From positions 448,001 through 512,000 of the forward strand of contig CM000430.1 of the NCBI GenBank assembly GCA_000165345.1: a stretch of DNA of 64,000 nucleotides. Direction: 5' to 3'. Both the position numbers and the translations under genes were made by a program. The notes below the pieces were generated by a model. It was not told the DNA's origin, did not search any database, and saw only the letters and a list, made by a program, of their open reading frames with translations. Below are positions 227-26,329 of the stretch, one piece after another. Each line of letters opens with the position of its first letter. Within the stretch, counting starts at the first letter, position 1.

Positions 227-2728
227 TCACTTAACACCCTTTAAAATATTTGATAATGATTGTATTGAACAGATTATAGTTACAGCTTGTTTTGCCTTGC
301 ATACGACTATTAGGTAATATATTAATTCTGTATATGAAAAAACTATTCTACACCTTTCAAAGTCTGAGCGTAGGATTCTCTGAGGAGATCGAATTGTTTT
401 TTTGAGCAAAACTTTTAATTCAAGGGGAAGGAAGCTGTTGTGAACCAATTCTGTCATTTCAAATTTGACAATTCCACATAGTTTAAATACGTAGCTCCAG
501 ATTGAAGACCTTATGGGATTAGTTGTGGGAACCTTATAAATATCACAAATTGTTGTAATGTTCTTATTGCAGTTATATAAAAGAATGTCTAATTCGTCCT
601 TAATACACTTTGAGCATTCTCCTGAGTAAATCGATAAAATAGACCATGCAGTTTCAGAATAGAATTCATATTCTAGCATTTGAATTGAAAAACTATTAAG
701 CATGCTCATGAAGTGTGCATTTTTATTTGTAAGGCATCCATTCTTCAATTCTTTTTTGTTTTTTCTAAACTCAAAGGTCTTTTCATTGTCTTTAAAACTA
801 AATTTTTTGTTGGATTCCAGCTTATTTAGAACTAAATTAGGGCTTTCTATCCCAATAAAGTTGCTTATATGTTTGAATCTTCCGGATAAAGAATTAAACT
901 GCAATTTTGGTTTAGAATTCATCACAGAGGAAAGAAGAACTCGATCAGCCTTATGCTTGTCAGAGTTTGATCTGAATAGAGGAATTTCGTCTTTGCTAAT
1001 ACCTAAAATATCGCCTTGGGGCGGAAAGTGATTAAGCAGATCCTTTATTCTAATCAAAGTTGAAACCTCTCCTTCATATTTTTGTTTTGAATGATACTCA
1101 CTCTCAAGATTTTTTTCATTATCATTAAAATTCTTAGTGTTGATTTGAGTGTATTCTTGCAGATATTCATTGGATCTAATTTGACTATCTGAAAATAAGG
1201 GCGTTCTATCTGAATTAGAGTAGTCTTTCCCCTCGTTAATTTGTTTCCTTTTTAACTTTACACTAATTGAGCTATCTAATATCCACTTTAAATCTATAAA
1301 GGAATTTATTTGAGAAAATAATCTAAGGTTGTAAATCTTGTTTAAACTGAAAATTGGAAGCTTTAAAAAACTTAATTTTGGCATTGACATATTTTTGTTT
1401 GTATTTGAAGTTGAATGATTGTTTTTTATACGATGGGTATAATTTTTTTCTTCCTTTTCTACATCTATATATTCTGATAAAATTTCTTTATAGTATGATG
1501 TTGTTAAGCTATCGGGATTTGAATTTTCATGAAAGAAATTCGATGAGATTACCTTTCGATATTCAAAGCAATCTTTCATAGTGGCTGGGTTTGGTTTGTA
1601 GCATGTATTCCCATCGCAATTCGGTCCTTCCAATGGATCTGGGCCAAGCTCCCAATGATCCATAGATGTTATTCCAAATGAACATGACAATTGCGATATT
1701 GATTGTATTGTTGTAACAATACATAAAATATGGCATAGTTCTGTTATTGTCCAAACTTGAGTATCTGAAACTTCTCCTATCAAATGGTTCATAAGTTCAT
1801 TAGAAATGTAGGCAGGTTCAAATGTAATACATTTTAGAAATTCAAAAAGCGCAAAGAATTTAACTGGTAGAGAATCTGAAGGATTTTCCAACCATTCAAT
1901 TGGACCATTGTTAAATATATACATTTGCATTTCTAATTTGATCATGTAATCGTTGTCGTATAAAGATGAACATAAAATCCCAATAAAGTGACGGTAGTGT
2001 AGTGGTAAAGCACCAAAGTTTTGATCTTCCATATTTATTTTGTAAGATTTGAGTAGCGCTTTTGCATATTCTGGAAGTATGTAAACAATTCTAAATACAG
2101 ACGGAATTCTCCCATAAAATGTATTGAAAACATCTTTCCAAAAAGTTTCGTTCTCATCTAAATAAAACTTGTTAGGAAAAAACCCAGGGGTACCAGGAAC
2201 TAAATACTCTGGAGAAATGAATCTTCCACAAGGAAGACAATGTTGATTATTTTCGCTATTTTCTGATGTAAATATTTTGATTGCTTCTCTAATTGAAATG
2301 CTACTTCCTCCCAGGGTGATGTTGAATAATAAATCCGGGTGTATATCTTTGATTTTCGTATAAAATAATGTGCTACTATACTCTGTTAATAACTTCTTTG
2401 GGTCCTCGTCTCTTCTTGAACCAATTGACCACGTTTCATTCAAACTGTTGATAATTGATTGCCAACTATTGGAAATAGACTCTCGAATATCTGAGTAGGG
2501 ATTTAGGCAAGTTGATAAGCGAAGAAGAATGCATAAAGATTGTTCAAATTTCCAGTAACTTGTTTCTCCATTTAACAATATTTGTTTCTGTATTACGTTG
2601 ACTCTATTTTCTATGTATCTTCCAATACTATTTGATTTTAGTCTTCCCCAGTTTGGAATATCCAAAAAAATACTAACAAATTCCTTATAGTTAACTAAAA
2701 GAAGAGATATTGGAAAACCATTATCCAT
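227..2728 (-). CDS. SESN: Sestrin (PA26) homolog with both Sesn-A and Sesn-C regions and a long low-complexity linker
   Basis: 833-aa ORF. The N-terminal part has HYRHFIGILCSS...NNGPIEWLEN...FEFLKCITFEPAYISNELMNHL...VWTITELCHILCIVTTIQSISQLSCSFGI, which parallels the sestrin block ...LVTHHL..GGDPAWL...INKLLAHRPWLITKEHI...[28 protein letters not shown]. The C-terminus has RSSIWSYVFKLCGIVKFE...LKVLLKKTI...YTELIYYLIVVCKAKQAVTIICSIQSL, which parallels [21 protein letters not shown]...LKVYIKTV...NLLLLEARMQAALLYALRAIT. Confidence 0.6.
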   Translation of the reverse strand: MDNGFPISLLLVNYKEFVSIFLDIPNWGRLKSNSIGRYIENRVNVIQKQILLNGETSYWKFEQSLCILLRLSTCLNPYSDIRESISNSWQSIINSLNETWSIGSRRDEDPKKLLTEYSSTLFYTKIKDIHPDLLFNITLGGSSISIREAIKIFTSENSENNQHCLPCGRFISPEYLVPGTPGFFPNKFYLDENETFWKDVFNTFYGRIPSVFRIVYILPEYAKALLKSYKINMEDQNFGALPLHYRHFIGILCSSLYDNDYMIKLEMQMYIFNNGPIEWLENPSDSLPVKFFALFEFLKCITFEPAYISNELMNHLIGEVSDTQVWTITELCHILCIVTTIQSISQLSCSFGITSMDHWELGPDPLEGPNCDGNTCYKPNPATMKDCFEYRKVISSNFFHENSNPDSLTTSYYKEILSEYIDVEKEEKNYTHRIKNNHSTSNTNKNMSMPKLSFLKLPIFSLNKIYNLRLFSQINSFIDLKWILDSSISVKLKRKQINEGKDYSNSDRTPLFSDSQIRSNEYLQEYTQINTKNFNDNEKNLESEYHSKQKYEGEVSTLIRIKDLLNHFPPQGDILGISKDEIPLFRSNSDKHKADRVLLSSVMNSKPKLQFNSLSGRFKHISNFIGIESPNLVLNKLESNKKFSFKDNEKTFEFRKNKKELKNGCLTNKNAHFMSMLNSFSIQMLEYEFYSETAWSILSIYSGECSKCIKDELDILLYNCNKNITTICDIYKVPTTNPIRSSIWSYVFKLCGIVKFEMTELVHNSFLPLELKVLLKKTIRSPQRILRSDFERCRIVFSYTELIYYLIVVCKAKQAVTIICSIQSLSNILKGVK

Positions 2729-12216: not shown

Positions 12217-13680
12217 ATGGTTAAATTTGGTGCATACATTATAGAGAACAATGATAATGGACCACAATTAATAAGAAGAGAAAAGTCTGGGCCATTGATT
12301 GTCTTAAAGGTTGGAACATCAACTTTAACAAATAGCAGGACAGGCAAACTTTCGGTTTCAAATATCGGTGCGTTGGTGGAAACAGTATGTGATTTAATGG
12401 ATAAGGGATGCAGAGTTGTATTAGTGTCTTCCGGAGCTGTTGGAGCTGGATTGCTTCACATGAATATCAGAGAAAAACCAAATAAGCTTCACCTGAAACA
12501 TGCAATAGCTGCTATTGGCCAGCCACTACTAATGAGAGTTTATGAAGACTTTTTTTCTATGAGAGGCGCTAAGGTTGCTCAATTACTAATGACTAGATCA
12601 GACTTTGTCAACAAAGATAGATTTATTGACTTTAAGAACACACTATTGGATTTGATACATTGGAACGTTGTCCCAATAATAAATGAAAATGACTCTGTAA
12701 CAACTATTGATCTTCATTTCGGCGATAATGATACACTAGCAGCTTACTGTGCAATTGCAATATCAGCAGATTGGTTAATATTGGCTACTGATGTTGATGC
12801 GCTTTTTACAAAAAATCCTCGACTTCATAGAGATGCTGTTCCAATACTAAAAGTAAACAATATTGATTCAATTATTCATATGGAAAATGACGTTTCAGAT
12901 GAAAATTGTGGCACTAATTTTGGAACTGGAGGCATGAGAACTAAGATTTTTGCTGCGAGGATTGCGGCTGCAGCCGGAATTTCAACATTTTTAGTGAATG
13001 GGTCGCACCCCAACAGACTATTGCAACTAGTAGACTCAATAGATTTTAAACTGAATAAGGCTCATAATAACAATGCAATAAGTTCGTATTATAGTTCTAC
13101 TAGTGAAGCCAATGATTTAGAAAATGTTAGTCTGTGTGAAAGCTTGGATATGAATTCTAGTAGCATGGAAAGCCTTGCTGATACAAAAACATGTTTCGAG
13201 CATTCCTACTCCTCTATAGTTGGTAACTTTATCGAGGAAACCCCAGAATCAACACAAGTAGATAATGGCATAATTACATGTGCTTTGGAAGAACTATATC
13301 AAGGAGAATACATTGGTACTATTTTTGCTAGGCAGGCTCTAACTCAATCTATGAAAAATCATAAAAGGTGGATAATGAGCCTACCTATTTCTGGGAAAAT
13401 ATTTCTTGATAAAGGAGCTATCAAATCTGTTACTGCCGACTCAAAATCCCTTTTTTCTGTGGGAATTGTCAACGTGAAGGGTAAATTTGAAACAGGAGAT
13501 GTTGTTTCCATTATTTGCGACGGAGACAATGATGAAAGAGAAATTGCAAGATGTGTTTCCAATTTTAATTCTGAACTACTTAAGAAAATAATGGGTAAAA
13601 AGTCTTGTGAATTAAATGAGTTGTTAGGATTAAATTCTCAAGGAATTGTTTCCGATAGGGCAAATATAATAAAACTATAA
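12217..13680 (+). CDS. proB: Glutamate 5-kinase (ProB-type, monofunctional) with a C-terminal PUA domain
   Basis: The N-terminus has the amino-acid-kinase fold (LIVLKVGTSTLT..., VVLVSSGAVGAG, NENDSVTTIDLHFGDNDTLAAYCAIAISADWLILATDVDALFTKNP, GTNFGTGGMRTKIFAARIAAAAGISTFLVNGSHP). The C-terminus has a PUA domain (GKIFLDKGAIKSVTADSKSLFSVGIVNVKGKFETGDVVSIICDGDNDEREIARC). About 95 aa of low-complexity insert separates the two domains. Confidence 0.8.
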   Translation: MVKFGAYIIENNDNGPQLIRREKSGPLIVLKVGTSTLTNSRTGKLSVSNIGALVETVCDLMDKGCRVVLVSSGAVGAGLLHMNIREKPNKLHLKHAIAAIGQPLLMRVYEDFFSMRGAKVAQLLMTRSDFVNKDRFIDFKNTLLDLIHWNVVPIINENDSVTTIDLHFGDNDTLAAYCAIAISADWLILATDVDALFTKNPRLHRDAVPILKVNNIDSIIHMENDVSDENCGTNFGTGGMRTKIFAARIAAAAGISTFLVNGSHPNRLLQLVDSIDFKLNKAHNNNAISSYYSSTSEANDLENVSLCESLDMNSSSMESLADTKTCFEHSYSSIVGNFIEETPESTQVDNGIITCALEELYQGEYIGTIFARQALTQSMKNHKRWIMSLPISGKIFLDKGAIKSVTADSKSLFSVGIVNVKGKFETGDVVSIICDGDNDEREIARCVSNFNSELLKKIMGKKSCELNELLGLNSQGIVSDRANIIKL

Positions 13681-15586: not shown

Positions 15587-18500
15587 ATGGTTAGAAACGT
15601 GAGATCGAAATATGTTGTTGGATTTACTATTCATGCTGGGAAGGGGTTTATTACTCCGAATCAAAGCCCAATAAACCCATTAGTTGTAGTAAGATGTTGC
15701 GGAAGAGAATACAGGAGCAAAATTAAGTACAATAAGTTAATTGCGACTCAATGGGATGAATCCCATTCATGGAACGATATATTTTTGACTGATTCTGAAT
15801 GGGAAATGTCATTTATTACTTTTGAGGTACAATCTGCCAATTCATTTTGGAAAAATGATGTAATTGGACAATGTTCAATACAATTAAAAACACTTAAACA
15901 GAGAAAAAATCACTTTTTAAAAAGGCATTTCAACATTACTGAGCTTAATGATACTTTTCCAAAAGGATTGCTTTATTTAACAGTATATGCATGCGGTCCG
16001 AATGATACTCCCCCGACAAGCGATATACTGGAATTAATGAATGCAGAAGAAGATAACTTTCAGAATAATCAAGTTGATTTCCTAAATCAAATTGTAGGAG
16101 CTCACGAAATGAAAAAAGAGTTCTCAACTTTAGAAAGAGAAAAGCAGATGTATAATTTATATGTAACAATTTATAGGGTTGAAGATTTATTATTCAAAAA
16201 AGGGCTAAGAGACCCTTTTATAACAGTAGAGTTTAGTGGTTGTAGTATGCAATCATCAATTGCTCGCGGTGTACTAGATCATAATTTTAATGAGTGCTTT
16301 AGATTTCCTGTTGTTGTACCAATCGTTGAGGACATAATAATATTAAAATTATGGGATAATTCAACAAAACCCCCAGCAATCATTACGCAAGGAAAGTTTT
16401 CATTTGCGAGAGTTAGATCTACAACAATCCCTGTAAGATGGTATAACTTTTATGGAAATTCTGCACTAAATATAGAACTTGGGAATAAATATTCGAACGA
16501 TATTTTCTTTACAGAAAATGTTTCTTCCCAAAGCGATATTTATTTAGGGAGAATACTTATTTCCATAAAAACAGAGCTATTAAGAAATAAAGATCAATTA
16601 ATGCCGGCTCAAGTGATAGCTGCTCAGCCGCTTGATGAGCTTTTTACTCAGCCATGCAATATAATCGCAGATGTATACTCAATTAAAGGCATTTTTGGAA
16701 GAAATGCATGCGTAGAGGTTTCGGTTGGGCCAAATAAACAGAGAACTGAATTTGTTTCGCGTGAGGTCGAAGGACAAAATTATGATAACTGTAAAAACAA
16801 TATAGTTAACAAATCAAAAAAACAACAAAGTATGGATAATTTTGTCTATGGGTCAACACAAGGTAGGGTTCCAAATATTGAAATTGAGTCTCAATCAAAG
16901 GAAGAATTTACTTGGGATATAATCATATCAGTTTATACTCACACTAATTCAAATGTTAATAAGGTGGATGCTCAAGGAATATTGAGTAGTAGTGAGCTGG
17001 CTCATGGTTCCAAAAGAGTTGCATATTGTCGATTAAAAATAATCGACATACCGCATTACATCGAAAATAAGCCACTACCACCTATTTGGATTCCATTAAA
17101 ACAAACAAGAGATGGTTGGATAGATATGATAGATAACAAGGAAAGAAGTTACAATAATAGATTTGAACCTTTATCAGAGACCGAAAACGAAAAAAATATT
17201 GAAACTAATAATATACAAGAAATTGACTTGTATAGTATTGGCTCAAGCGCTATCTTGATCTCAATTTCTAAGCAATTTGCTTCATCAGTAAAGCGTACAA
17301 AGAGGCACACAATAAAGTGTATAGATTATGAGTTAAGATGTTATTTGTATGCTTGCAGAAATCTTAATGAAACAGGAAAAGATAGGACAAATCCCTATAT
17401 AGTAGTTTCATGCAATGGAGTCTATACAACATCTTCTGTTAAAGTTAATACAAATAATCCAACATTTTTAGAATGCTTATTTTTGAGAGTGAAAATAGAA
17501 TCTGATCCTTTAACATCTTTTCCAACTGTTGCGCCCATCACAATAAGTGTATTTTCAAGACATAGTTGGGGAAAAAGATTTATCGGATTATGTACCTGTA
17601 TATATGACAGAATTAATGGAAGGAATAAAAATAATGAGCCTATTAGTACCTTAGAGCCATTTTGGATTAAATTAAAAGGTGGTGCAAGGTTGAACAATCA
17701 TGTCGGCGATATTTTACTTTGTATTGATATTGTTAAACTGTGCGATTCAAAAATGGTGCCACCACAACCTTTATTTCCAGAATTAAAAAGGGTACAAATG
17801 ATAGTTACTACTACTCTTCTTCAAGATTTATTTATGATGACTGAAGAAGATATTCAATATAATATTAAGTCAAAGCTTTCTCAGGATGAAGATTTATCAC
17901 TCTTAAACCAAGGAATAATAGGTTCAAAGATTGAAAGATATAGAATTTTAAAGGAGATGAATGGTAATTTTTTTCTTGAAAATCATGAAAGGGGAAATGT
18001 ATATTCAACAGAAATAAAAAACCCAGTTATTGAGTTCACTGTAAGCGCTTTTGGAAGAGTTGATGCTACCACAGAAGGATCTGAAAATGTTGGTGATAAG
18101 CTACTAAAAAATTCAGAGGGTAGAACAAAATCATCTAGTAGTATTCCAACATATAGGCAGATTGTACAGTGGAAGTCTATAACATCCGCTGGGGCAAAGG
18201 AATTTTTCAATAAATCTTGGAAAACTTTAAGAGGGTACAACTTCGAATTCTTCAAGACAATCTCTCTAGATATTTTTTTACCGTTATCACCATTATTTGA
18301 TCCAAGACTCACAATAAGAATCTTTGAAGGGTTAGTAGATGATTCTAAACTAGTTGGCGAGTTTGTTATATCTTTAGTTTCGTTTCTACCTTGGATACCT
18401 GATGTTGATTCTGCTCACGAGTGGATTTCTTCAAAGCATGATTTTTCTAATAACATAGATATTGCAAAAATAACAAATGTATTATCAAAAGGATCTAAAA

Positions 18501-20647
18501 AAAAAAACTTAATTAAACATTCTGGCTTAGCAAGTATTGCTCTTGCAGATATGGAAGAAGATAAAGAAAAAAAGATGAATTCAACAGCGCACCCTTTCCC
18601 TGCTGTTTCACAACAAGAAGAAATGGAAGAACTTAAAAAAAAAAGTTTAATGAACCACGGGTTAAACCAAGCTGGAGTTCCAATTACTTTAATAAAGTCG
18701 TATACTGTTTCCAATGTATATTACCCTAGGATATCGCAGAATATGTTCACGATTAATTTACATATCCCGTTTCACTTTATTATTGTTGCAGAAGGAAAGA
18801 CTACTGATAAAAGAAATAATTTGAAAATCATGATATCAAATTCAGGGATGGATACAGGAGGAGTGATTACTACAAGCACATCTGGAAAGACAGTTTCACT
18901 CCGCCCATCAATTGACTCAACTATGGAAGAATTTCTGTCAGATATTCTTATTCCAATAATTCCTGTGAGAAAAAAAGGGTTTGATGGAAAGATGAAGACA
19001 TTTGGGTACTTAAGGGGATATATTCTCTTAGCATTGCCTGGGGTACTAGATGAAATTAATTCTAAGAAGAGCAATGAGAATATTACAAACGATAATATAG
19101 ATGAAGACGAAATCATATCTCAAGAAATAAAACAAGCAGTTGAGAATAACAAAATTTCTAGATGTTACAGCCATGAGATGATCAGATACATAATAAATAT
19201 AAATAGTTTATATAAGAGGATCAAAGGTGATAATGTGTACCCAAATCCTGTAAGAGTACGTCTATATATATTGTCCGCATTGGCACTAGTAGTCCCAATT
19301 GACTATAGTGAAAATATTTATCAGCAATCACTTGAAAAAAAAACGTTCTTTGAAAAAATTAAAGATAAACTATCAATAATAAATATGTTTGAACAAAACA
19401 TAAGGATAAAATCATTTTATATTTCAATTGTTTACGGTTCAAAGGAAGAAAATTTTAGGTCGACTGCAAAGGGGACATTAAACCCTTTATTTTATGTATG
19501 CCAGGAGTATAACGTAAACTTTCCAGTTGAATCTAGGTTTGAGATTAGGGTTTGGGGAATACAAGAAAAAGTTTATCCATATCTAGCATGTAAAGTACTT
19601 GGGCTACTGAATCAGGAAAAGAAAGAAGATGGCGAAAATACCGATCTGAATGGAAATTCGAATAATGATTTGGTTATTAATGAAATTAATAATGAAGTTT
19701 GCCAGGAGTTGGGACCTGAATATGATGTTTTTATTGGGAGTACAGCCATGGACTTAACTGATAGATGGCATAGCAAAGAATGGCGTCAGATGATGAGAGA
19801 AGATCATATACCCATTGAATATCGTCCACTATACAGGGACTGCACAAGTAATGTCAACTATGGTTTGCTACAAATGTGGGTTGAAATTATGAGTTCAAAT
19901 AAAGCAGCAGTTACAAAAAGGTACGAGCTTTCAGAACCTGTACCAACAGAAGTGGAAGTTAGGGTCATTATCTGGGCAGGAAGAGATATAAAGACTGCAA
20001 ATAATTTAGATTATGGAGATTATTTATTTAAATCTACCCTGGATTGCAAACAGTATCCAGAATTTAGGCCAGATTTTGGTAATAATAACCCAAGGGTACA
20101 ACAGACTGATGTTCATTATAATTGTAGAACTGGGGAACCTGTTTTTAATTGGAGGCTTGTTTATCCGCACCTGGTAACACCAATAAGTGGTTGTTTACTT
20201 CAAATTTCAATTTACCATTATAGCTCATTTGGAAATCACGAATTTATCGGCGAAGTTAATTTGGACTTAAGGAAATACATAATGAATGTTGCAAATTCGT
20301 TAGAGGCAATTGATGAAGATGTCGAATTGCCACTTGTGAACTCACAAAGCGTAGATTCGTCATTTGATGCCGGTTTTGTGCAAGTGACAATTCAAATAAT
20401 TCCTCAGTCAGAAGCAAATAGTAAAAAGGTTGGAATGGGGAGAGATATACCAAATAGATTTCCGAAACTAGTAACTCCTTCAGTTGGAAGAAACTGGGAG
20501 GATTTCTTACAACTGAAGGAAAGGCAGGATGCACTTAGACCTATTTGGCTGAAAATAAGAATCGTTTATGTAATTTTTGCGATATTATTATTTTTTATCA
20601 TAGGTGCAGTATATCCTGCATTGTTTTACCAGTCAATTTATTCCTAA
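15587..20647 (+). CDS. Ferlin-like multi-C2-domain, tail-anchored membrane protein
   Basis: 1686 aa. It has several C2-like beta-sandwich segments and a single C-terminal transmembrane anchor (IVYVIFAILLFFIIGAVYPALF) directly before the stop. Size and architecture are typical of ferlins. Confidence 0.7.
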   Translation: MVRNVRSKYVVGFTIHAGKGFITPNQSPINPLVVVRCCGREYRSKIKYNKLIATQWDESHSWNDIFLTDSEWEMSFITFEVQSANSFWKNDVIGQCSIQLKTLKQRKNHFLKRHFNITELNDTFPKGLLYLTVYACGPNDTPPTSDILELMNAEEDNFQNNQVDFLNQIVGAHEMKKEFSTLEREKQMYNLYVTIYRVEDLLFKKGLRDPFITVEFSGCSMQSSIARGVLDHNFNECFRFPVVVPIVEDIIILKLWDNSTKPPAIITQGKFSFARVRSTTIPVRWYNFYGNSALNIELGNKYSNDIFFTENVSSQSDIYLGRILISIKTELLRNKDQLMPAQVIAAQPLDELFTQPCNIIADVYSIKGIFGRNACVEVSVGPNKQRTEFVSREVEGQNYDNCKNNIVNKSKKQQSMDNFVYGSTQGRVPNIEIESQSKEEFTWDIIISVYTHTNSNVNKVDAQGILSSSELAHGSKRVAYCRLKIIDIPHYIENKPLPPIWIPLKQTRDGWIDMIDNKERSYNNRFEPLSETENEKNIETNNIQEIDLYSIGSSAILISISKQFASSVKRTKRHTIKCIDYELRCYLYACRNLNETGKDRTNPYIVVSCNGVYTTSSVKVNTNNPTFLECLFLRVKIESDPLTSFPTVAPITISVFSRHSWGKRFIGLCTCIYDRINGRNKNNEPISTLEPFWIKLKGGARLNNHVGDILLCIDIVKLCDSKMVPPQPLFPELKRVQMIVTTTLLQDLFMMTEEDIQYNIKSKLSQDEDLSLLNQGIIGSKIERYRILKEMNGNFFLENHERGNVYSTEIKNPVIEFTVSAFGRVDATTEGSENVGDKLLKNSEGRTKSSSSIPTYRQIVQWKSITSAGAKEFFNKSWKTLRGYNFEFFKTISLDIFLPLSPLFDPRLTIRIFEGLVDDSKLVGEFVISLVSFLPWIPDVDSAHEWISSKHDFSNNIDIAKITNVLSKGSKKKNLIKHSGLASIALADMEEDKEKKMNSTAHPFPAVSQQEEMEELKKKSLMNHGLNQAGVPITLIKSYTVSNVYYPRISQNMFTINLHIPFHFIIVAEGKTTDKRNNLKIMISNSGMDTGGVITTSTSGKTVSLRPSIDSTMEEFLSDILIPIIPVRKKGFDGKMKTFGYLRGYILLALPGVLDEINSKKSNENITNDNIDEDEIISQEIKQAVENNKISRCYSHEMIRYIININSLYKRIKGDNVYPNPVRVRLYILSALALVVPIDYSENIYQQSLEKKTFFEKIKDKLSIINMFEQNIRIKSFYISIVYGSKEENFRSTAKGTLNPLFYVCQEYNVNFPVESRFEIRVWGIQEKVYPYLACKVLGLLNQEKKEDGENTDLNGNSNNDLVINEINNEVCQELGPEYDVFIGSTAMDLTDRWHSKEWRQMMREDHIPIEYRPLYRDCTSNVNYGLLQMWVEIMSSNKAAVTKRYELSEPVPTEVEVRVIIWAGRDIKTANNLDYGDYLFKSTLDCKQYPEFRPDFGNNNPRVQQTDVHYNCRTGEPVFNWRLVYPHLVTPISGCLLQISIYHYSSFGNHEFIGEVNLDLRKYIMNVANSLEAIDEDVELPLVNSQSVDSSFDAGFVQVTIQIIPQSEANSKKVGMGRDIPNRFPKLVTPSVGRNWEDFLQLKERQDALRPIWLKIRIVYVIFAILLFFIIGAVYPALFYQSIYS

Positions 20648-20838: not shown

Positions 20839-21345
20839 ATGAGTGATCATTCTTCACTCTTTTCTCTATCAAAAATTTCAATTAGCGACTTATTAATGTT
20901 AAAAGAGAAAAAATGTGAAAATAAAATTGAAAATGCAAAATTTATCACAAAGCCATCGAATCTTGAAGACATTTTTACAGAAGATTTTAAGCAAAAAATG
21001 GAGAGAAACAAGATTTGTTTGAGTGTGAACGCGCAAGGTGATGTTCTAACTCATTTTCCTCTTTTCTTAAATGAACCATTTACTTCTAATGAAAACAATA
21101 AATCTTTATCTGCAAGAATTGATACAAAAAAAGAAAATCTTCATTTAAATCAAACGAACAATAGCGCTATTTCAAAAAAAAGAAGTAAAATTAATGAAAT
21201 AATTGAAACTAACATTGGAGATCATTTGATTTATGAAATGAAGATTAACAAAAATCGATTCGCAAGAAAAGAGTTGACTAGCACAAAATTAATTTGGAAT
21301 TCAATTCAAGAAAATATTAAAAGTATTATTTCTTCTACTGAATAG
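20839..21345 (+). CDS. Hypothetical small protein (168 aa)
   Basis: ORF with ATG at 20839 in the roughly 720-bp gap between the convergent ferlin and glucan-water-dikinase genes. It has a K/N-rich composition and no recognisable domain. It could be a genuine lineage-specific gene or just an ORF in the 3' UTR. Confidence 0.3.
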   Translation: MSDHSSLFSLSKISISDLLMLKEKKCENKIENAKFITKPSNLEDIFTEDFKQKMERNKICLSVNAQGDVLTHFPLFLNEPFTSNENNKSLSARIDTKKENLHLNQTNNSAISKKRSKINEIIETNIGDHLIYEMKINKNRFARKELTSTKLIWNSIQENIKSIISSTE

Positions 21346-21370: not shown

Positions 21371-24300
21371 CTAAACCTGGGGTCTTGACTGTACAATAGC
21401 TATACTAAATGATTTTATGCTTGATCCTTGGCAATCTTCAATTATACAGCCCTCAATATCCTGTGGTATTTCGTCAAACTCATCTTGAACATAAAACGCT
21501 ATTGTTGCCAATTGTTTCAGTGCTTCATTTCTGTAATCTTGATCTTTTATTATTGGCTGACTCAGATACTTAACATATTTACTAATAGGATCGAATAGCG
21601 GAACTGACTGAAATACTCCTGCTCCTGCAAACCCTTCAATATCTTCTGCATTTGAGTCTGACCTAAAAATGAAGTTGCAAGGTATGTTACAATGATCAAT
21701 TAAGCTTCTATTATTTTGAGAAATTGGATTAAACATTGCAGTTGATTTTGAGGGAAACGAAACGACATTGATATTTTGAATAAAACTTTTATCTTTGTAA
21801 TTTTTACAGTTCCTTTTTCTTAATGCAGTAAATCCCATAGATTTCCCAAGTGTATTCGAAACTAATGTTTCCCCTAATCCAATAACCAATTCTCCATACA
21901 TCTCTTCGTATTCTGCTAAGTTAATATTCTTATTCTGAATTGGGTTTTTGCTGTGTAGTACAAAAGCGTATTTGGCATTCATTAACCTTTGAATTGCAAT
22001 CGACATGTATACATTTGACAGTGGTAATCCAATTTTTTTCATGTTCAAGAATGAAATTGGCTGATATACAGACATCCAAACCTTTATAATTTTCTCCCAA
22101 ATTAATTTCATCGAGTTGGAATGTTTTTGAATCCTTTCTTTATTAATTGCTTTTATAGTATCAACATTTATATTTTCTAAATCTAGCTGTACAAGTATTT
22201 TCATCGCATTTATTAATTCCTCAATTAGCTGAGTGCATGGTTCGACTTCATATTCAATGATATTGCAAACATTTTTAAGTATTTCAGATGCCTCTGGATT
22301 TTCTATTTTACATTGTTCTTCAAGAATATTTAGTTGGGAGGTTATTTTTTCAAATGTGCTGCTGTTCAATAATTTGTTCAATGTACCAAATGGTAAAGAA
22401 ACACAACTTGGTACAAAAAAAGGTAGTTCAATACTTTTTGATGTAAATAATCGTCTTAGCTTGACGAGGTTTAATGCCTTTTGCCCGACATTATTATTAT
22501 CCATTTCGCTTGGTAGTAAAACCCATTTGTTTAAGCCTTTAATTTTGTTTTTAAATTCGAAAAATCTTGATTTATACTTTACCTTTACTTGACTCAAAGA
22601 TTTGGTTGCAATCAATTCATTTTTATCTAAAATCTCATTGTTTTTACTGATATCTAGCCTCAAATCGCTTCTAATTTGTAAATTAATTATTTCATTTTCC
22701 TCTATAGAATTAATGAATTCTGAAATTTGAGGGTTTTGGCAAACAACTAGTAAAACATTCATATTCCTTGCTCTAACCGATAAATGAGAAAGTAAATCTG
22801 GTGAGTTTTCAGGGTTTGTCAAAATTATCCCAATTACATTCATTGGAATATCTTCCTCTCCAGAAATATTCGAGCAAGAAATTATTTTCTTATACGGATC
22901 TTCAGCAAGTTCTGTTATTTTGTTCAATTTCTTAAAAATTCCAGTGAAAATTTGGTCATCTCTCCATGAGGGGTGATAACTAATAAATTGCCAATCACTC
23001 AATTCATTAGGATCAGTTTTATTTAATAAATATTTATTTACTCGTTTAATTTGAAGTGAAATTGTGGAATATAGTGTAGAACGCAAAATTTCATCCATAA
23101 AATTTTTTATTATTGGATCGTCTTTAGATAGACCAATGCTTCTTCCGAAGAAAGTAACTTTTGGGTTCCATATTGAAAAAATATTATCCATCATTGATCC
23201 AATAAAAAGCTGTAGCCTATCTACTAAACTCTTCAAAATAAGAATATAGTTTTCTGTTGATTTATTCAATATTTTGAATTCTTTCCAATCAAAAATAATT
23301 GCTTCTAATTCTTTATTACACGGGTCATGCCCAAATAATATCCAGATGAAAGAATTCATTTCATCAATGAGATGTATAATATTATCATAGTTGTTATTTA
23401 TAGTGCAGATTGTTTGTATAAACATGCACTGCAAGTTTTCCAGGCCTAAATCCAAGTACATTATTTCTTTAATTGCATGAAAATTGCAAGTATCTGTATC
23501 CAATTGTTTCCCTCCGTATAAATTATAAATCAAATTTAAAATTTCTTCTCTTGCCCTATTAACATGCATTAATCGACCATGTAAAACATTTAAGTCTTTG
23601 GTGTTATCAAACCGTTTATTTTCCCCAAATATCACAGATGCGCAGATATTTTGTGATCTTTCATCCAAGTACTCTCTTGAATAATGAAATGATCTTTGAA
23701 GGTTTGATGCTTCGTGAACATCCACCAGCACCTCTAAATATTGTTCAAAATCAGATGCAAGAGTATTAACATCTAAGAAAGGAGGAATATATGGCTTTGA
23801 AGTAATTGGACGGTCATAAGATCTAATTTTTTCCCAAGATAATCCTTCTTCATGAAGTATCTTTGAAAAAATTTCTTCATTACCATTGTTTCTAAGGTAT
23901 CCAATAATTGAACGACATATTCCAACATCATCCGGAGTTGTATTATTATGTAACTTTTGATGCCATTGCTCGTAAAAGGTTCCATGATCTTCTGGAATAC
24001 GATTCTTATGCATAATATGTAGTATCCTATCTCTTACTTCCTGCCCACGAGATCCGCCTCTAATAATTGACTGGGCAATTAATCTAATTTGGTATCTGTA
24101 TTGAGGCATCTCCAGCCACTTTGATATTAGCGTTAATGAAGCTGTTTCTGCTGATTGAGCTAATAACCTCGGAGCAGTGTTATAATTTCTTTGCCAATCT
24201 AATACTCCAAGAGAATTAAATCTCATCCAAATCATAATCCATGCCCAGAATTCTTCACCACAAAGTATTGCGTCTCTAATATTCTCGGAGTTTATTGCTA

Positions 24301-26329
24301 TCAAATTATGATCAGTAGACTCTCGTTTGTTATTGGTTTCAAAGTCATACCATAATATTACATTTGAATTAGATATAAATTTGTAAGTACCATTTATAAA
24401 TTCATTTGACCATTTTTTAATAATCTGATCCATTAAATTATATCTGTGCATCAAAGTTATACTTCCCCATTCAACTTCTGCATTAATGATATCAAATACT
24501 ATATCTGACCAAATTCCTTTCCATCTGTCATTTTTTTTTTCTTGGAAGGAGATTACAATTTCTATATCTTTATCTCCTTCCTTGTGCCAACAAACATGAC
24601 CATTCTCGTCTAATGTCTTAAAAACACAAACGAACCGATCAAATGGCATTGAATCTATTAATTTGATTTTTATTTCAACTTCTTGTTCAAATATGTAATC
24701 ATCTACTTTATTTATTTCAGGCATATCGATTTCAGTTGAATCTTCACTTATTTCGTTGTATTCTGAAGATGAACAAAAATTTGAAAGATTTCTCCAGCTC
24801 TTTTTCCCTCTTATTGTTCGATCCAACATTCCACAGTGCAATACAAGTTTTCTTTTTGAAATCGTTTTTAATCTGATTATGCTATTTCCATTTTGAAGAG
24901 CAGATAGAATATGTAATTTTCCAATACCTTCGGAAATATCTACAATTTTATTTGTAATAATAAATTCAGATGAAATTAAATTAACCTTTAAAAATTCTTC
25001 GATTGATTTGTCTATTTCGGATAGAAATCTTTTTAGATTAAATTCCCAAGTTTGATTAGTTTTTTTCTTATTTATATCAAAGATAGAATTTAGAGACTTT
25101 TCTTCTTCATGATGGATAGAATATGGTAATTTAAAAATAAAGTCTTTATTGTTCTCTGACTTCACCCACTTAATTGGATATTTTGAAGTTTGTTTTGGCT
25201 TAAGCTTGATTACATAAACAAAACCTTTAAATAGCTGTAAAATTTCAATTGGAAATATTAATTTACATATAGAGTAATACTTTGTGATAATAAAATTTGT
25301 TTCGACAGACATTTCATCTATCCTAGTAAAATTTGAAATTAGATTGTGCCTTCTCAAATATTCGTATGGAGATAACCAATTTATCTTCTGCGTACATTTT
25401 GTAAAGCCAAAGTGAAGAGCCAATTCATATTCTTCGAGGTTAAATTTATTTTGATAATTATAGCTTGAGTTACCAATATCCGTATAAACTATTAATTCAA
25501 AAAAATCGTTGTTTTGAAATTTTTCATATGTTTTACAGGATACGACCCAAACACAATTATTCTCTGTGGTAAATTCATTGTATGAATATATAAATGAATC
25601 ATTAAGGATGAAGTGGGCATTTTTGTCTGTTGTATTTAATGATTTGGATTTTAAAGTATCTTCTGAATCCAATCCAATTTCAGAGAATTTTTGGAATAAA
25701 TGTTGATTTTGTTGGTCTTCGGAAATAATTAGTTCTATCCACTCTAAAAGGAATAACACTCTTCCAATTGGAATAAAAAAGTCAGAATTGTGTCTATCCA
25801 AATCTTTAATCCATATTTTCTCAGTTAAAAATAGTTCATTATTGGTAGAGTGAGGTGAAATTGAATACAGTACAAATGATATTCCCCACTCTTTGTTTAT
25901 TCCGTTAAGCCAATCCGGAGAATTTTTACAATTTTCTGTTTCATTAAATTCAACTTCATTAATAGAGATATATTTATGGGAAGATTTTAGATGAAGAATA
26001 TCAAGCATAATTTTGCAAGAATAAAATGAAAAATCGTCCGATATTTTAAGGCCAGTTTTACACGAGATTCCATCGTCATTTTTCTCTATTGTAGAACCAT
26101 TGGATAAAAAAAGACAATTTAAAGGCTGCATCCATTTAGATTTACTTTTTGGAACAATTCCCCAATGAAGTGTTATCAATTGATTTAAAAAATTATTATT
26201 TCGATATAAAAAGTTAATTTTTAAAGCTCTATTTTTATTTTCAAGTTCAACTTTGACTTGAATTTTTCCTCCGTTTGAGCAGTTAAAGTTATAAAGTTGA
26301 AACAATTGTATACCATTACCTTCATTCAT
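21371..26329 (-). CDS. GWD: Alpha-glucan, water dikinase (GWD/R1-type starch/amylopectin phosphorylating enzyme)
   Basis: 1652 aa. The C-terminal PEP-utilising/PPDK-like nucleotide-binding region carries the diagnostic motif IFRSDSNAEDIEGFAGAGVFQSVP (compare plant RSDSNGEDLEGYAGAGLYDSVP) and ELVIGLGETLVSN. The N-terminus has starch-binding-like repeats. Confidence 0.85.
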   Translation of the reverse strand: MNEGNGIQLFQLYNFNCSNGGKIQVKVELENKNRALKINFLYRNNNFLNQLITLHWGIVPKSKSKWMQPLNCLFLSNGSTIEKNDDGISCKTGLKISDDFSFYSCKIMLDILHLKSSHKYISINEVEFNETENCKNSPDWLNGINKEWGISFVLYSISPHSTNNELFLTEKIWIKDLDRHNSDFFIPIGRVLFLLEWIELIISEDQQNQHLFQKFSEIGLDSEDTLKSKSLNTTDKNAHFILNDSFIYSYNEFTTENNCVWVVSCKTYEKFQNNDFFELIVYTDIGNSSYNYQNKFNLEEYELALHFGFTKCTQKINWLSPYEYLRRHNLISNFTRIDEMSVETNFIITKYYSICKLIFPIEILQLFKGFVYVIKLKPKQTSKYPIKWVKSENNKDFIFKLPYSIHHEEEKSLNSIFDINKKKTNQTWEFNLKRFLSEIDKSIEEFLKVNLISSEFIITNKIVDISEGIGKLHILSALQNGNSIIRLKTISKRKLVLHCGMLDRTIRGKKSWRNLSNFCSSSEYNEISEDSTEIDMPEINKVDDYIFEQEVEIKIKLIDSMPFDRFVCVFKTLDENGHVCWHKEGDKDIEIVISFQEKKNDRWKGIWSDIVFDIINAEVEWGSITLMHRYNLMDQIIKKWSNEFINGTYKFISNSNVILWYDFETNNKRESTDHNLIAINSENIRDAILCGEEFWAWIMIWMRFNSLGVLDWQRNYNTAPRLLAQSAETASLTLISKWLEMPQYRYQIRLIAQSIIRGGSRGQEVRDRILHIMHKNRIPEDHGTFYEQWHQKLHNNTTPDDVGICRSIIGYLRNNGNEEIFSKILHEEGLSWEKIRSYDRPITSKPYIPPFLDVNTLASDFEQYLEVLVDVHEASNLQRSFHYSREYLDERSQNICASVIFGENKRFDNTKDLNVLHGRLMHVNRAREEILNLIYNLYGGKQLDTDTCNFHAIKEIMYLDLGLENLQCMFIQTICTINNNYDNIIHLIDEMNSFIWILFGHDPCNKELEAIIFDWKEFKILNKSTENYILILKSLVDRLQLFIGSMMDNIFSIWNPKVTFFGRSIGLSKDDPIIKNFMDEILRSTLYSTISLQIKRVNKYLLNKTDPNELSDWQFISYHPSWRDDQIFTGIFKKLNKITELAEDPYKKIISCSNISGEEDIPMNVIGIILTNPENSPDLLSHLSVRARNMNVLLVVCQNPQISEFINSIEENEIINLQIRSDLRLDISKNNEILDKNELIATKSLSQVKVKYKSRFFEFKNKIKGLNKWVLLPSEMDNNNVGQKALNLVKLRRLFTSKSIELPFFVPSCVSLPFGTLNKLLNSSTFEKITSQLNILEEQCKIENPEASEILKNVCNIIEYEVEPCTQLIEELINAMKILVQLDLENINVDTIKAINKERIQKHSNSMKLIWEKIIKVWMSVYQPISFLNMKKIGLPLSNVYMSIAIQRLMNAKYAFVLHSKNPIQNKNINLAEYEEMYGELVIGLGETLVSNTLGKSMGFTALRKRNCKNYKDKSFIQNINVVSFPSKSTAMFNPISQNNRSLIDHCNIPCNFIFRSDSNAEDIEGFAGAGVFQSVPLFDPISKYVKYLSQPIIKDQDYRNEALKQLATIAFYVQDEFDEIPQDIEGCIIEDCQGSSIKSFSIAIVQSRPQV

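What the first reader, a model, noticed from the sequence alone, without database searches (positions are those of the whole stretch)
21371..26329. Alpha-glucan water dikinase: a plant-type starch-metabolism enzyme that points to an amylopectin-storing apicomplexan
A PPDK-like C-terminus carries the diagnostic phospho-His-region motif RSDSNAEDIEGFAGAGVFQSVP, and the N-terminal architecture is GWD-like. The gene is 1652 aa and intronless. GWD is restricted to Archaeplastida and a few alveolates that store amylopectin. It is absent from Plasmodium and the piroplasms. Together with the compactness and AT-richness, this supports a Cryptosporidium-like origin. It is also a non-host enzyme and so potentially druggable.
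Basis: partly seen in the sequence, partly recalled or inferred. Interest (0 to 1): 0.5.

Follow-up and report, generated by a model that had tools for sequence, protein, structure and literature searches.

The report
Cryptosporidium parvum starch-phosphorylating enzyme (GWD)

Summary
The ORF is real: 21371-26329, minus strand, 1652 codons, uninterrupted. [quoted passage not shown] Window 11371-36329 matches C. parvum chromosome record CP029781.1 with 0 mismatches in 24,959 bp.

All GWD hallmarks are present:
- a GWD-specific central domain (E = 2e-42 to the crystal structure chain named alpha-glucan water dikinase, chloroplastic);
- a GWD phosphohistidine domain with the catalytic His (H1182, LLSHLSVRARN);
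- a PPDK_N-type ATP-binding domain;
- N-terminal CBM45-type modules.

PPDK and PEP synthase are excluded, and no CBM20 is found.

- The quoted motif (aa 1556-1577) lies in the ATP-binding domain, not the phospho-His region.
- The N-terminus carries three CBM45-like modules, against two in plant GWD1. Chromera, Cyclospora, Toxoplasma and the red alga Cyanidium also show three.
- GWD is not confined to Archaeplastida and alveolates. Desulfobulbaceae-affiliated metagenomic contigs encode homologues inside an alpha-glucan gene cluster.

The enzyme's activity has not been tested in Cryptosporidium; its function is inferred by homology. Verdict: correct identification of a known, annotated gene, of low novelty.

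The parts
21371..26329 (-). Complete single-exon CDS of alpha-glucan, water dikinase (1652 aa plus stop)
   Evidence: ORF. [quoted passage not shown]: identical DNA in CP029781.1.
25763..26293 (-). CBM45-like module 1 (aa 13-189). It has the LHWG motif (W56), W66 and W173, plus a Cryptosporidium-specific insertion at about aa 111-148.
   Evidence: Pfam PF23166 Ig_N_CWD1, E = 2.2e-9, 37.9 bits. PF23166 hits both modules of plant GWD1. Iterative profile seeded with Gossypium CBM45_1: first-inclusion E = 2e-7. AF2 beta-sandwich at aa 10-187.
25124..25522 (-). CBM45-like module 2 (aa 270-402). LHFG replaces LHWG (F307); W318 and W388 are kept.
24551..24922 (-). CBM45-like module 3 (aa 470-593), directly upstream of the central domain like plant CBM45_2. 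LHCG (C499); W512 and W581 are kept.
   Evidence: Iterative CBM45 profile, first-inclusion E = 9e-9. Alignment. AF2 beta-sandwich at aa 457-592 with pLDDT 65-87.
23027..24301 (-). GWD-specific central (alpha-helical) domain, aa 677-1101. It includes WHQKLHNNTTPDD (789-801) and FMDEILR (1077-1083), the counterpart of StGWD1 E900/E901/R904.
   Evidence: phmmer E = 2.2e-42 to PDB 9ha9_A/9qvi_A, the crystallised central domain of potato GWD1 (PMC13553574). Motif conservation across 10 lineages.
22646..22945 (-). Phosphohistidine (swivelling) domain, aa 1129-1228
   Evidence: Pfam PF22973 GWD1_pHisD, E = 1.2e-15, 57.5 bits.
22784..22786 (-). Codon of the predicted catalytic histidine H1182 (PDLLSH*LSVRARN)
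   Evidence: It aligns with the His of SHVSVRARN in Gossypium GWD1, Toxoplasma, Chromera and Cyanidium, which is H992 of mature StGWD1 (PMC13553574). It is invariant in 7 Cryptosporidium orthologues.
21374..22525 (-). ATP-binding (PPDK_N / ATP-grasp) domain, aa ~1269-1652. Motifs: VGQKALN, YAFVLHSKNP, GLGETLVS, PQDIEG, VQSRPQV.
   Evidence: Pfam PF01326 PPDK_N, E = 6.5e-9 over aa 1410-1651. The N-terminal boundary is taken from the alignment with plant and alveolate GWDs.
21599..21664 (-). It is a conserved loop of the ATP-binding domain, not the phospho-His region.
   Evidence: Coordinates. It lies inside the PPDK_N match. It is conserved as RSDSNGEDLEG[FY]AGAG in all GWDs aligned, including the bacterial one.

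Best explanation
The ORF is the C. parvum alpha-glucan, water dikinase (GWD; 'R1-like'; EC 2.7.9.4 type).

Proposed mechanism, by homology with potato and Arabidopsis GWD1. The three N-terminal CBM45-like beta-sandwich modules hold the enzyme on the surface of cytosolic amylopectin granules. The C-terminal ATP-grasp domain binds ATP. The beta-phosphate is transferred to H1182 on the swivelling phosphohistidine domain, and the gamma-phosphate goes to water, releasing AMP and Pi. The His domain then pivots back to the central domain, where the phosphate is passed to a glucosyl hydroxyl (most likely C6) of an amylopectin chain. Phosphorylation loosens the crystalline double helices so that glucan phosphorylase, amylases and the debranching enzyme can mobilise glucose. 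In this parasite that glucose fuels sporozoites in the oocyst and during excystation.

Shown here: gene identity, domain architecture, conservation of the catalytic residues, and absence of a transit peptide and of the plant redox-switch motif. Inferred: the enzymatic activity, the C6 specificity, starch binding by the modules, and the physiological role.
For: Identity: 100 % identity and coverage to EAK88766.1 and three further C. parvum depositions, and identical chromosome DNA.

Catalytic residues: SH1182LSVRARN, GEEDIP (the E971 counterpart), FMDEILR (E900/E901/R904 counterparts), GxK, YAFVLHxxNP, GLGETLV, RSDSNxED, PQDIEG and VQxRPQV are all conserved against plant, red-algal, chromerid, coccidian, gregarine and bacterial homologues. 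They are invariant among 7 Cryptosporidium species down to 51 % overall identity, which argues for purifying selection.

Relatives: the closest named relatives outside the genus are annotated GWDs of Cyclospora, Toxoplasma and Gregarina. Chromera, Effrenium and Gossypium GWD1 also match at 31-36 % over the whole 980-aa catalytic half.

Expression and context: the protein is expressed, being detected and phosphorylated in C. parvum sporozoites (PMC13599311). C. parvum stores amylopectin, whose amount correlates with sporozoite viability (PMC5574715). The mechanistic model comes from StGWD1 structure and SAXS work (PMC13553574).
Against: No biochemical or genetic data on the Cryptosporidium enzyme were found in the searchable literature. 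Regiospecificity (C6 versus C3) cannot be read from sequence.

Modules 2 and 3 have lost the first Trp of the LHWG signature (F307, C499). They are recognised only by an iterated profile, not by Pfam directly. Internal hhalign comparisons are weak, with probability 7-19 %. Their glucan binding is therefore unproven.

A few positions deviate from the family consensus: GQKA instead of G[SA]KS, and R1448 where most members have the Glu equivalent to StGWD1 E1225. That Glu is reported to act through its backbone (PMC13553574).

The usual partner phosphatase, laforin, is reported absent from Cryptosporidium (PMC2064834, PMC2714694), so the complete phosphorylation/dephosphorylation cycle is not accounted for.
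Confidence: 0.9

Rival explanations
1. It is a phosphoglucan, water dikinase (PWD/GWD3-like, C3-phosphorylating), or a dual-specificity enzyme that covers both roles because the parasite has only one such gene.
For: It has the same pHis and PPDK_N catalytic chemistry. Sequence cannot discriminate C6 from C3 specificity. The rest of the genome was not searched for a second dikinase, so a single enzyme might have to do both jobs.
Against: No CBM20, the N-terminal module of plant PWD (own knowledge), was found at E <= 1. The N-terminus is CBM45-type, as in GWD1. The large central domain matches the crystallised GWD1 central domain at E = 2e-42. All named close relatives are annotated as GWD1-type.
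Confidence: 0.06
2. It is a pyruvate phosphate dikinase or PEP synthase mis-annotated as GWD. Some database entries for the orthologues in C. muris, C. andersoni and C. meleagridis-like genomes carry 'pyruvate phosphate dikinase, PEP/pyruvate binding domain' names.
For: It shares the PPDK_N domain. Several orthologue records carry PPDK-type names.
Against: No PEP-utilizer mobile domain and no PEP/pyruvate-binding TIM-barrel domain were detected at E <= 1. PEP synthase in the PDB scores only E = 0.14 over 80 residues. NCBIfam PEP-synthase and rifampin-phosphotransferase models reach 10-17 bits against cut-offs of 598-999. The domain order is CBM - central - His - ATP, typical of GWD (PMC13553574). 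The PPDK names come only from the Pfam name of the shared ATP-binding domain.
Confidence: 0.01
3. It is a catalytically dead or regulatory remnant: a starch-granule scaffold retained in a reduced genome.
For: Cryptosporidium has a streamlined metabolism (own knowledge) and reportedly lacks the laforin partner (PMC2064834). Modules 2 and 3 have degenerate Trp signatures. The protein is of low abundance in sporozoites (PMC13599311).
Against: Every catalytic motif checked is intact, and all are invariant across Cryptosporidium species that are only 51 % identical overall. The protein is expressed (PMC13599311). A 1652-codon ORF is maintained in all species sampled.
Confidence: 0.03

Closest known systems
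Toxoplasma gondii alpha-glucan water dikinase (TgGWD, 1715 aa; EPR60161.1) and other coccidian/gregarine GWDs (Cyclospora XP_026189897.1, Gregarina XP_011130567.1)
   Same: They share the domain order: three CBM45-like modules, central domain, His domain, ATP domain. They are 33-35 % identical over the 980-aa catalytic half, with the same catalytic motifs. They act on cytosolic amylopectin granules, and neither has the plant CFATC redox motif.
   Different: The Cryptosporidium proteins are much more AT-biased and divergent. They have genus-specific insertions in module 1 (about aa 111-148) and in the ATP domain (about aa 1466-1473 and 1500-1551). They have GQKA instead of GSKS. The organism reportedly lacks the laforin phosphatase that partners TgGWD (PMC2064834, PMC11963886).
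Plant GWD1 (potato R1/StGWD1; Arabidopsis SEX1; Gossypium XP_012467413.1)
   Same: The central domain matches the crystal structure at E = 2e-42. The pHis domain has the His in SH[VL]SVRARN. The ATP-binding domain is the same, with CBM45-type N-terminal modules. Identity is 31 % over the catalytic half. The presumed swivelling-His mechanism is the same (PMC13553574).
   Different: Plants have a plastid transit peptide, two CBM45 modules separated by a long linker containing DUF7067 repeats, and a redox-sensitive CxxxC (CFATC) just after the catalytic His. The C. parvum protein starts directly with module 1. It has a third module where plants have the linker, no DUF7067, and only one Cys in that stretch (LLVVCQN).
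Pyruvate phosphate dikinase / PEP synthase / rifampin phosphotransferase
   Same: They have a homologous ATP-grasp nucleotide-binding domain and a swivelling phosphohistidine domain (PMC13553574).
   Different: The domain order differs. This protein has no PEP/pyruvate-binding domain. The acceptor is a glucan, bound with the help of the central domain and the CBMs. Sequence similarity is marginal.

Membership tests
Alpha-glucan, water dikinase (GWD1 type, EC 2.7.9.4) | C-terminal PPDK_N-type ATP-binding domain with conserved nucleotide-binding motifs | tested here: met
   PF01326 at 36 bits against a 27-bit cut-off. GxK, YAFVLHxxNP, GLGETLV, RSDSNxEDxEG, PQDIEG and VQxRPQV are aligned and conserved.
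Alpha-glucan, water dikinase (GWD1 type, EC 2.7.9.4) | GWD-type phosphohistidine domain with the catalytic His in the SHVSVRARN helix | tested here: met
   PF22973 at 57.5 bits, E = 1.2e-15. H1182 aligns with the catalytic His of plant GWD1 and is invariant in the genus.
Alpha-glucan, water dikinase (GWD1 type, EC 2.7.9.4) | GWD-specific central domain between the CBMs and the His domain | tested here: met
   aa 677-1101 match chains 9ha9_A/9qvi_A (named alpha-glucan water dikinase, chloroplastic; the StGWD1 central domain per PMC13553574) at E = 2.2e-42. The putative phosphate-transfer residues E900/E901/R904 correspond to D1079/E1080/R1083.
Alpha-glucan, water dikinase (GWD1 type, EC 2.7.9.4) | N-terminal CBM45 starch-binding modules | tested here: met
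Alpha-glucan, water dikinase (GWD1 type, EC 2.7.9.4) | Catalytic activity: ATP + alpha-glucan + H2O -> AMP + phospho-alpha-glucan (C6) + Pi; binding to starch | not testable with these tools
   This needs recombinant enzyme assays. No published assay for the Cryptosporidium enzyme was found.
Alpha-glucan, water dikinase (GWD1 type, EC 2.7.9.4) | The host organism makes semicrystalline alpha-glucan (starch/amylopectin) | not tested
   From the literature only: C. parvum stores amylopectin/floridean starch (PMC2064834, PMC5574715, PMC9729606).
Phosphoglucan, water dikinase (PWD/GWD3) | N-terminal CBM20 starch-binding domain | tested here: not met
   No CBM_20 hit in the Pfam scan, even at E <= 1.
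Pyruvate phosphate dikinase / PEP synthase | PEP-utilizer mobile domain plus a C-terminal PEP/pyruvate-binding TIM barrel; full-length match to PPDK/PEPS models | tested here: not met
   Neither domain appears in the Pfam scan at E <= 1. NCBIfam PEPS models reach 10-17 bits against cut-offs of 598-972. PDB PEPS scores E = 0.14.

The most novel reading that the evidence does not exclude
Cryptosporidium may run glucan phosphorylation without the canonical partner. It keeps an intact, expressed, three-CBM45 GWD, yet it is reported to lack laforin and, not being a green-lineage organism, SEX4. One possibility is that an unrecognised glucan phosphatase exists in this minimal genome. The other is that phosphate esters are removed downstream by other means. 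If so, CpGWD would be the single committed, non-host control point of amylopectin mobilisation in oocysts and sporozoites. My evidence neither supports nor excludes this, because the rest of the genome was not searched.
Probability: 0.2. Interest if true: 0.4.

Novelty: already known. Interest (0 to 1): 0.12.

Why it matters
The gene has been annotated as an R1-like GWD since the first C. parvum genome annotation, and it appears in recent pathway reconstructions and in a sporozoite phosphoproteome (PMC13599311). The finding therefore adds no new biology. Its value is as a correct provenance marker for the window (C. parvum chromosome CP029781.1) and as a reminder that Cryptosporidium retains a red-alga/plant-type starch phosphorylation step that the human host lacks. 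Amylopectin content has been linked to oocyst and sporozoite viability, so the enzyme is a plausible but entirely unvalidated drug or viability-marker target. The small additions made here are the three-module CBM45 architecture shared with red algae and other myzozoans, the loss of the plant redox switch, and the correct placement of the catalytic His.

Tried and rejected
(1) Two word-indexed homologue searches, one with the single sequence and one with the 7-species profile, returned only Cryptosporidium proteins. Distant relatives were reached only with the exhaustive representative search on aa 670-1652.

(2) Direct internal-repeat comparison of the three N-terminal segments by hhalign gave weak, short alignments with probability 7-19 %. 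I did not rely on it. An iterated profile seeded from plant CBM45_1 was used instead.

(3) A Pfam scan of modules 2 and 3 alone gave no hit at E <= 10.

(5) The afdb50 library was unavailable.

(6) No supplementary tables of the phosphoproteome paper are held, so the CryptoDB gene ID and the phosphosites could not be extracted.

(7) A literature search for bacterial GWD in Desulfobulbaceae was uninformative.

(8) PPDK/PEP synthase and PWD assignments were considered and rejected (see the membership tests).
Full report
OBSERVATION. The window contains a single uninterrupted ORF at exactly the stated coordinates: 21371..26329, minus strand, ATG start, 1652 aa. The frame is closed by a stop just upstream of the ATG. 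The window is 30 % GC. With its own base composition a codon is a stop with p = 0.080, so an open run of 1652 codons has probability about 1e-60. Twenty shuffles of the window gave at most 163 stop-free codons. The string RSDSNAEDIEGFAGAGVFQSVP is present at aa 1556-1577, which is window 21599-21664.

IDENTITY AND PROVENANCE. [quoted passage not shown] The accessions are EAK88766.1, QOY42999.1, WKS76530.1 and WRK31023.1.
- The 90 %-identity cluster also holds the C. hominis, C. tyzzeri and C. meleagridis-like orthologues.
- Orthologues of 82-51 % identity exist in chipmunk genotype I, C. ubiquitum, C. canis and C. bovis.
- Orthologues of 58 % identity over the catalytic half exist in C. muris and C. 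andersoni.
- The gene lies on a 992-kb C. parvum chromosome record, CP029781.1 in GCA_031892065.1.
- Window 11371-36329 is identical to positions 466022-490980 of that record, with 0 mismatches in 24,959 bp.
- The called gene there is one 4959-nt exon, so 'intronless' holds.

The neighbours are ordinary eukaryotic genes: AA_kinase+PUA, a protein kinase, a multi-C2 protein, an MA3 protein, Dopey and a P4-ATPase. None is related to starch, and none would be expected to be.

ANATOMY. Pfam finds three families above their 27-bit cut-offs: GWD1_pHisD (aa 1129-1228, 57.5 bits), Ig_N_CWD1 (aa 15-105, 37.9 bits) and PPDK_N (aa 1410-1651, 36 bits). Against all PDB sequences the only significant hits are 9ha9_A and 9qvi_A, 'alpha-glucan water dikinase, chloroplastic', at E = 2e-42 over aa 677-1101. 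These are the crystallised central domain of potato GWD1 (PMC13553574). PEP synthase reaches only E = 0.14 over about 80 residues. NCBIfam PEP-synthase and rifampin-phosphotransferase models score 10-17 bits against cut-offs of 598-999.

The catalytic half (aa 670-1652) has 1136 relatives at E <= 1e-3 among 1.84 billion representatives, and 210 at E <= 1e-30. The named ones, at 29-36 % identity over nearly the whole 980 residues, are:
- GWDs of Cyclospora, Toxoplasma and Gregarina;
- proteins of Chromera velia, the dinoflagellate Effrenium voratum and the red alga Cyanidium caldarium;
- Gossypium GWD1.

In a 10-lineage alignment every catalytic landmark is conserved:
- the catalytic His (PDLLSH1182LSVRARN, equivalent to H992 of mature StGWD1);
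- GEEDIP, the counterpart of E971, which is proposed to polarise the His;
- FMDEILR, in which D1079, E1080 and R1083 correspond to E900, E901 and R904, proposed for transfer to the glucan (PMC13553574);
- WHQKLHNNTTPDD;
- the ATP-domain motifs VGxK, YAFVLHxxNP, GLGETLV, RSDSNxEDxEGxAGAG, PQDIEG and VQxRPQV.

All of these are invariant among seven Cryptosporidium species whose overall identity falls to 51 %.

CORRECTION 1: THE MOTIF. It is conserved there in all GWDs, including a bacterial one. The phospho-His region is about 375 residues upstream, at H1182, whose codon is window 22784-22786.

STARCH-BINDING MODULES. No CBM20 is detected, even at E <= 1. PF23166 (Ig_N_CWD1) hits plant GWD1 in two stretches, at 98-214 and in the CBM45_2 region. 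It hits the Chromera protein in three stretches. Together with the CBM45 coordinates of PMC13553574, this shows that the Pfam family corresponds to CBM45.

In the C. parvum protein only the first module reaches Pfam significance. I noticed three in-register signatures:
- LHWG...W...WIKD..DFFIP at aa 54-187;
- LHFG...W...KWVKS..DFIFKLP at aa 305-402;
- LHCG...W...CWHKE..DIEIV at aa 497-593.

Modules 2 and 3 have replaced the first Trp of LHWG (F307, C499) while keeping the other two aromatic positions. Whether they still bind glucan is unknown. Positionally, module 3 abuts the central domain as plant CBM45_2 does. Module 2 occupies the place of the long plant linker, which carries DUF7067.

OTHER DIFFERENCES FROM PLANT GWD1. 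There is no transit peptide: module 1 starts at aa 13. That fits cytosolic amylopectin in an organism without a plastid (the absence of a plastid is established knowledge). The plant redox motif after the catalytic His, C-x-x-x-C (NCKVCFATCFD in Gossypium), is absent; C. parvum has NMNVLLVVCQN. There are also genus-specific insertions in module 1 (about aa 111-148, low pLDDT) and in the ATP domain.

MECHANISM. The most likely mechanism is the GWD1 one. The CBM45 modules tether the enzyme to the granule. ATP binds the ATP-grasp domain. H1182 takes the beta-phosphate, with the gamma-phosphate going to water. The His domain pivots to the central domain, and the phosphate is transferred to amylopectin, probably at C6. 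This opens the crystalline surface to glucan phosphorylase, amylase and debranching enzyme (mechanism from PMC13553574 and PMC2064834).

Shown here are the architecture and the residue conservation. Shown by others are two facts: the protein is present and phosphorylated in C. parvum sporozoites (PMC13599311), and C. parvum stores amylopectin, whose content has been related to sporozoite viability (PMC5574715). The activity, the regiospecificity, the starch binding and the phenotype are inferred. I put 0.9 on 'functional GWD'.

Rivals:
- PWD-like or dual specificity (0.06);
- inactive scaffold (0.03);
- PPDK or PEP synthase (0.01, effectively refuted).

CORRECTION 2: TAXONOMIC RANGE. 'Restricted to Archaeplastida and a few alveolates' is too narrow. 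Among the relatives are 1166-1182-aa proteins whose clusters include entries labelled as Desulfobulbaceae or Deltaproteobacteria MAGs. They are 31-32 % identical over the catalytic half. One, P0060, sits on a 41.8-kb contig between genes for a Glyco_transf_5 glycogen synthase, a GH57 branching enzyme and an amylase/debranching-like protein on one side, and a second pHis+PPDK_N paralogue on the other. That is a bacterial alpha-glucan cluster, not eukaryotic contamination.

The absence from Plasmodium and the piroplasms was not tested here. The literature says that Plasmodium does not metabolise insoluble glucans (PMC2714694). It also says that the starch-pathway enzyme glycogen phosphorylase is missing from Plasmodium, Babesia and Theileria (PMC5574715).

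OPEN POINT. Gentry et al. report that Cryptosporidium lacks laforin, the glucan phosphatase that partners GWD in Toxoplasma (PMC2064834, PMC2714694, PMC11963886). What removes the phosphate in Cryptosporidium is not addressed by this window and could not be searched here.

VERDICT. The gene is already annotated and already placed in published pathway maps. Novelty: already known. Interest: low (0.12).

Noticed in passing
L003:8001-15064 (ENA contig k141_1736401; the cluster of P0060 includes MDH5524619.1, a Desulfobulbaceae MAG): A bacterial GWD homologue of 1182 aa (Ig_N_CWD1 + GWD1_pHisD + PPDK_N, 31 % identical to the C. parvum catalytic half) lies in an alpha-glucan gene cluster. The cluster holds a Glyco_transf_5 glycogen synthase, a GH57 branching enzyme, DUF4912 and an amylase/debranching-like gene. 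A second dikinase paralogue (AP_endonuc_2 + GWD1_pHisD + PPDK_N) follows immediately. This suggests glucan phosphorylation in sulfate-reducing or cable-type bacteria. No paper on it was found in the held library.
   Followed up: partly
window 25886-25999 (aa 111-148 of the GWD, inside CBM45-like module 1): A Cryptosporidium-specific insertion in module 1 is predicted disordered (pLDDT 31-47). It nevertheless contains residues invariant across 7 species (H113, S117, H118, K119, E132, N133, C134, W140, L141). Invariant C17, C72 and C90 lie elsewhere in the module. It could be a metal, disulfide or interaction site; its function is unknown.
   Followed up: no
window 25124-25522 and 24551-24922: The three-CBM45 architecture (plants have two) is shared by Cryptosporidium, Cyclospora, Toxoplasma, Chromera and the red alga Cyanidium. 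This fits a red-algal-type origin of the myzozoan starch pathway. One Toxoplasma paper states that the GWD binds amylopectin through CBM20 (PMC11414933), but no CBM20 is detectable in the C. parvum orthologue.
   Followed up: partly
window 20839-21345 (+): A 168-aa ORF ends only 25 bp from the GWD stop codon, in convergent orientation. It is called as a gene in the public C. parvum assemblies but has no Pfam family. The function is unknown, and the tight 3'-3' spacing implies overlapping 3' UTRs.
   Followed up: no
window 15587-20647 (+): A 1686-aa protein with four C2-domain matches and a C-terminal hydrophobic tail (a ferlin-like architecture) lies immediately next to the GWD gene.
   Followed up: no
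window 12217-13680 (+) and 53969-56263 (-): Two metabolic genes stand out for a genome this reduced. One is an AA_kinase + PUA protein (glutamate-5-kinase-like architecture). The other is a 764-aa GMC oxidoreductase-like flavoprotein. Possible lateral transfers were not examined.
   Followed up: no
window 227-2728 (-): An 833-aa protein matches PA26/sestrin (E = 1e-28), a stress/TOR-pathway regulator family.
   Followed up: no
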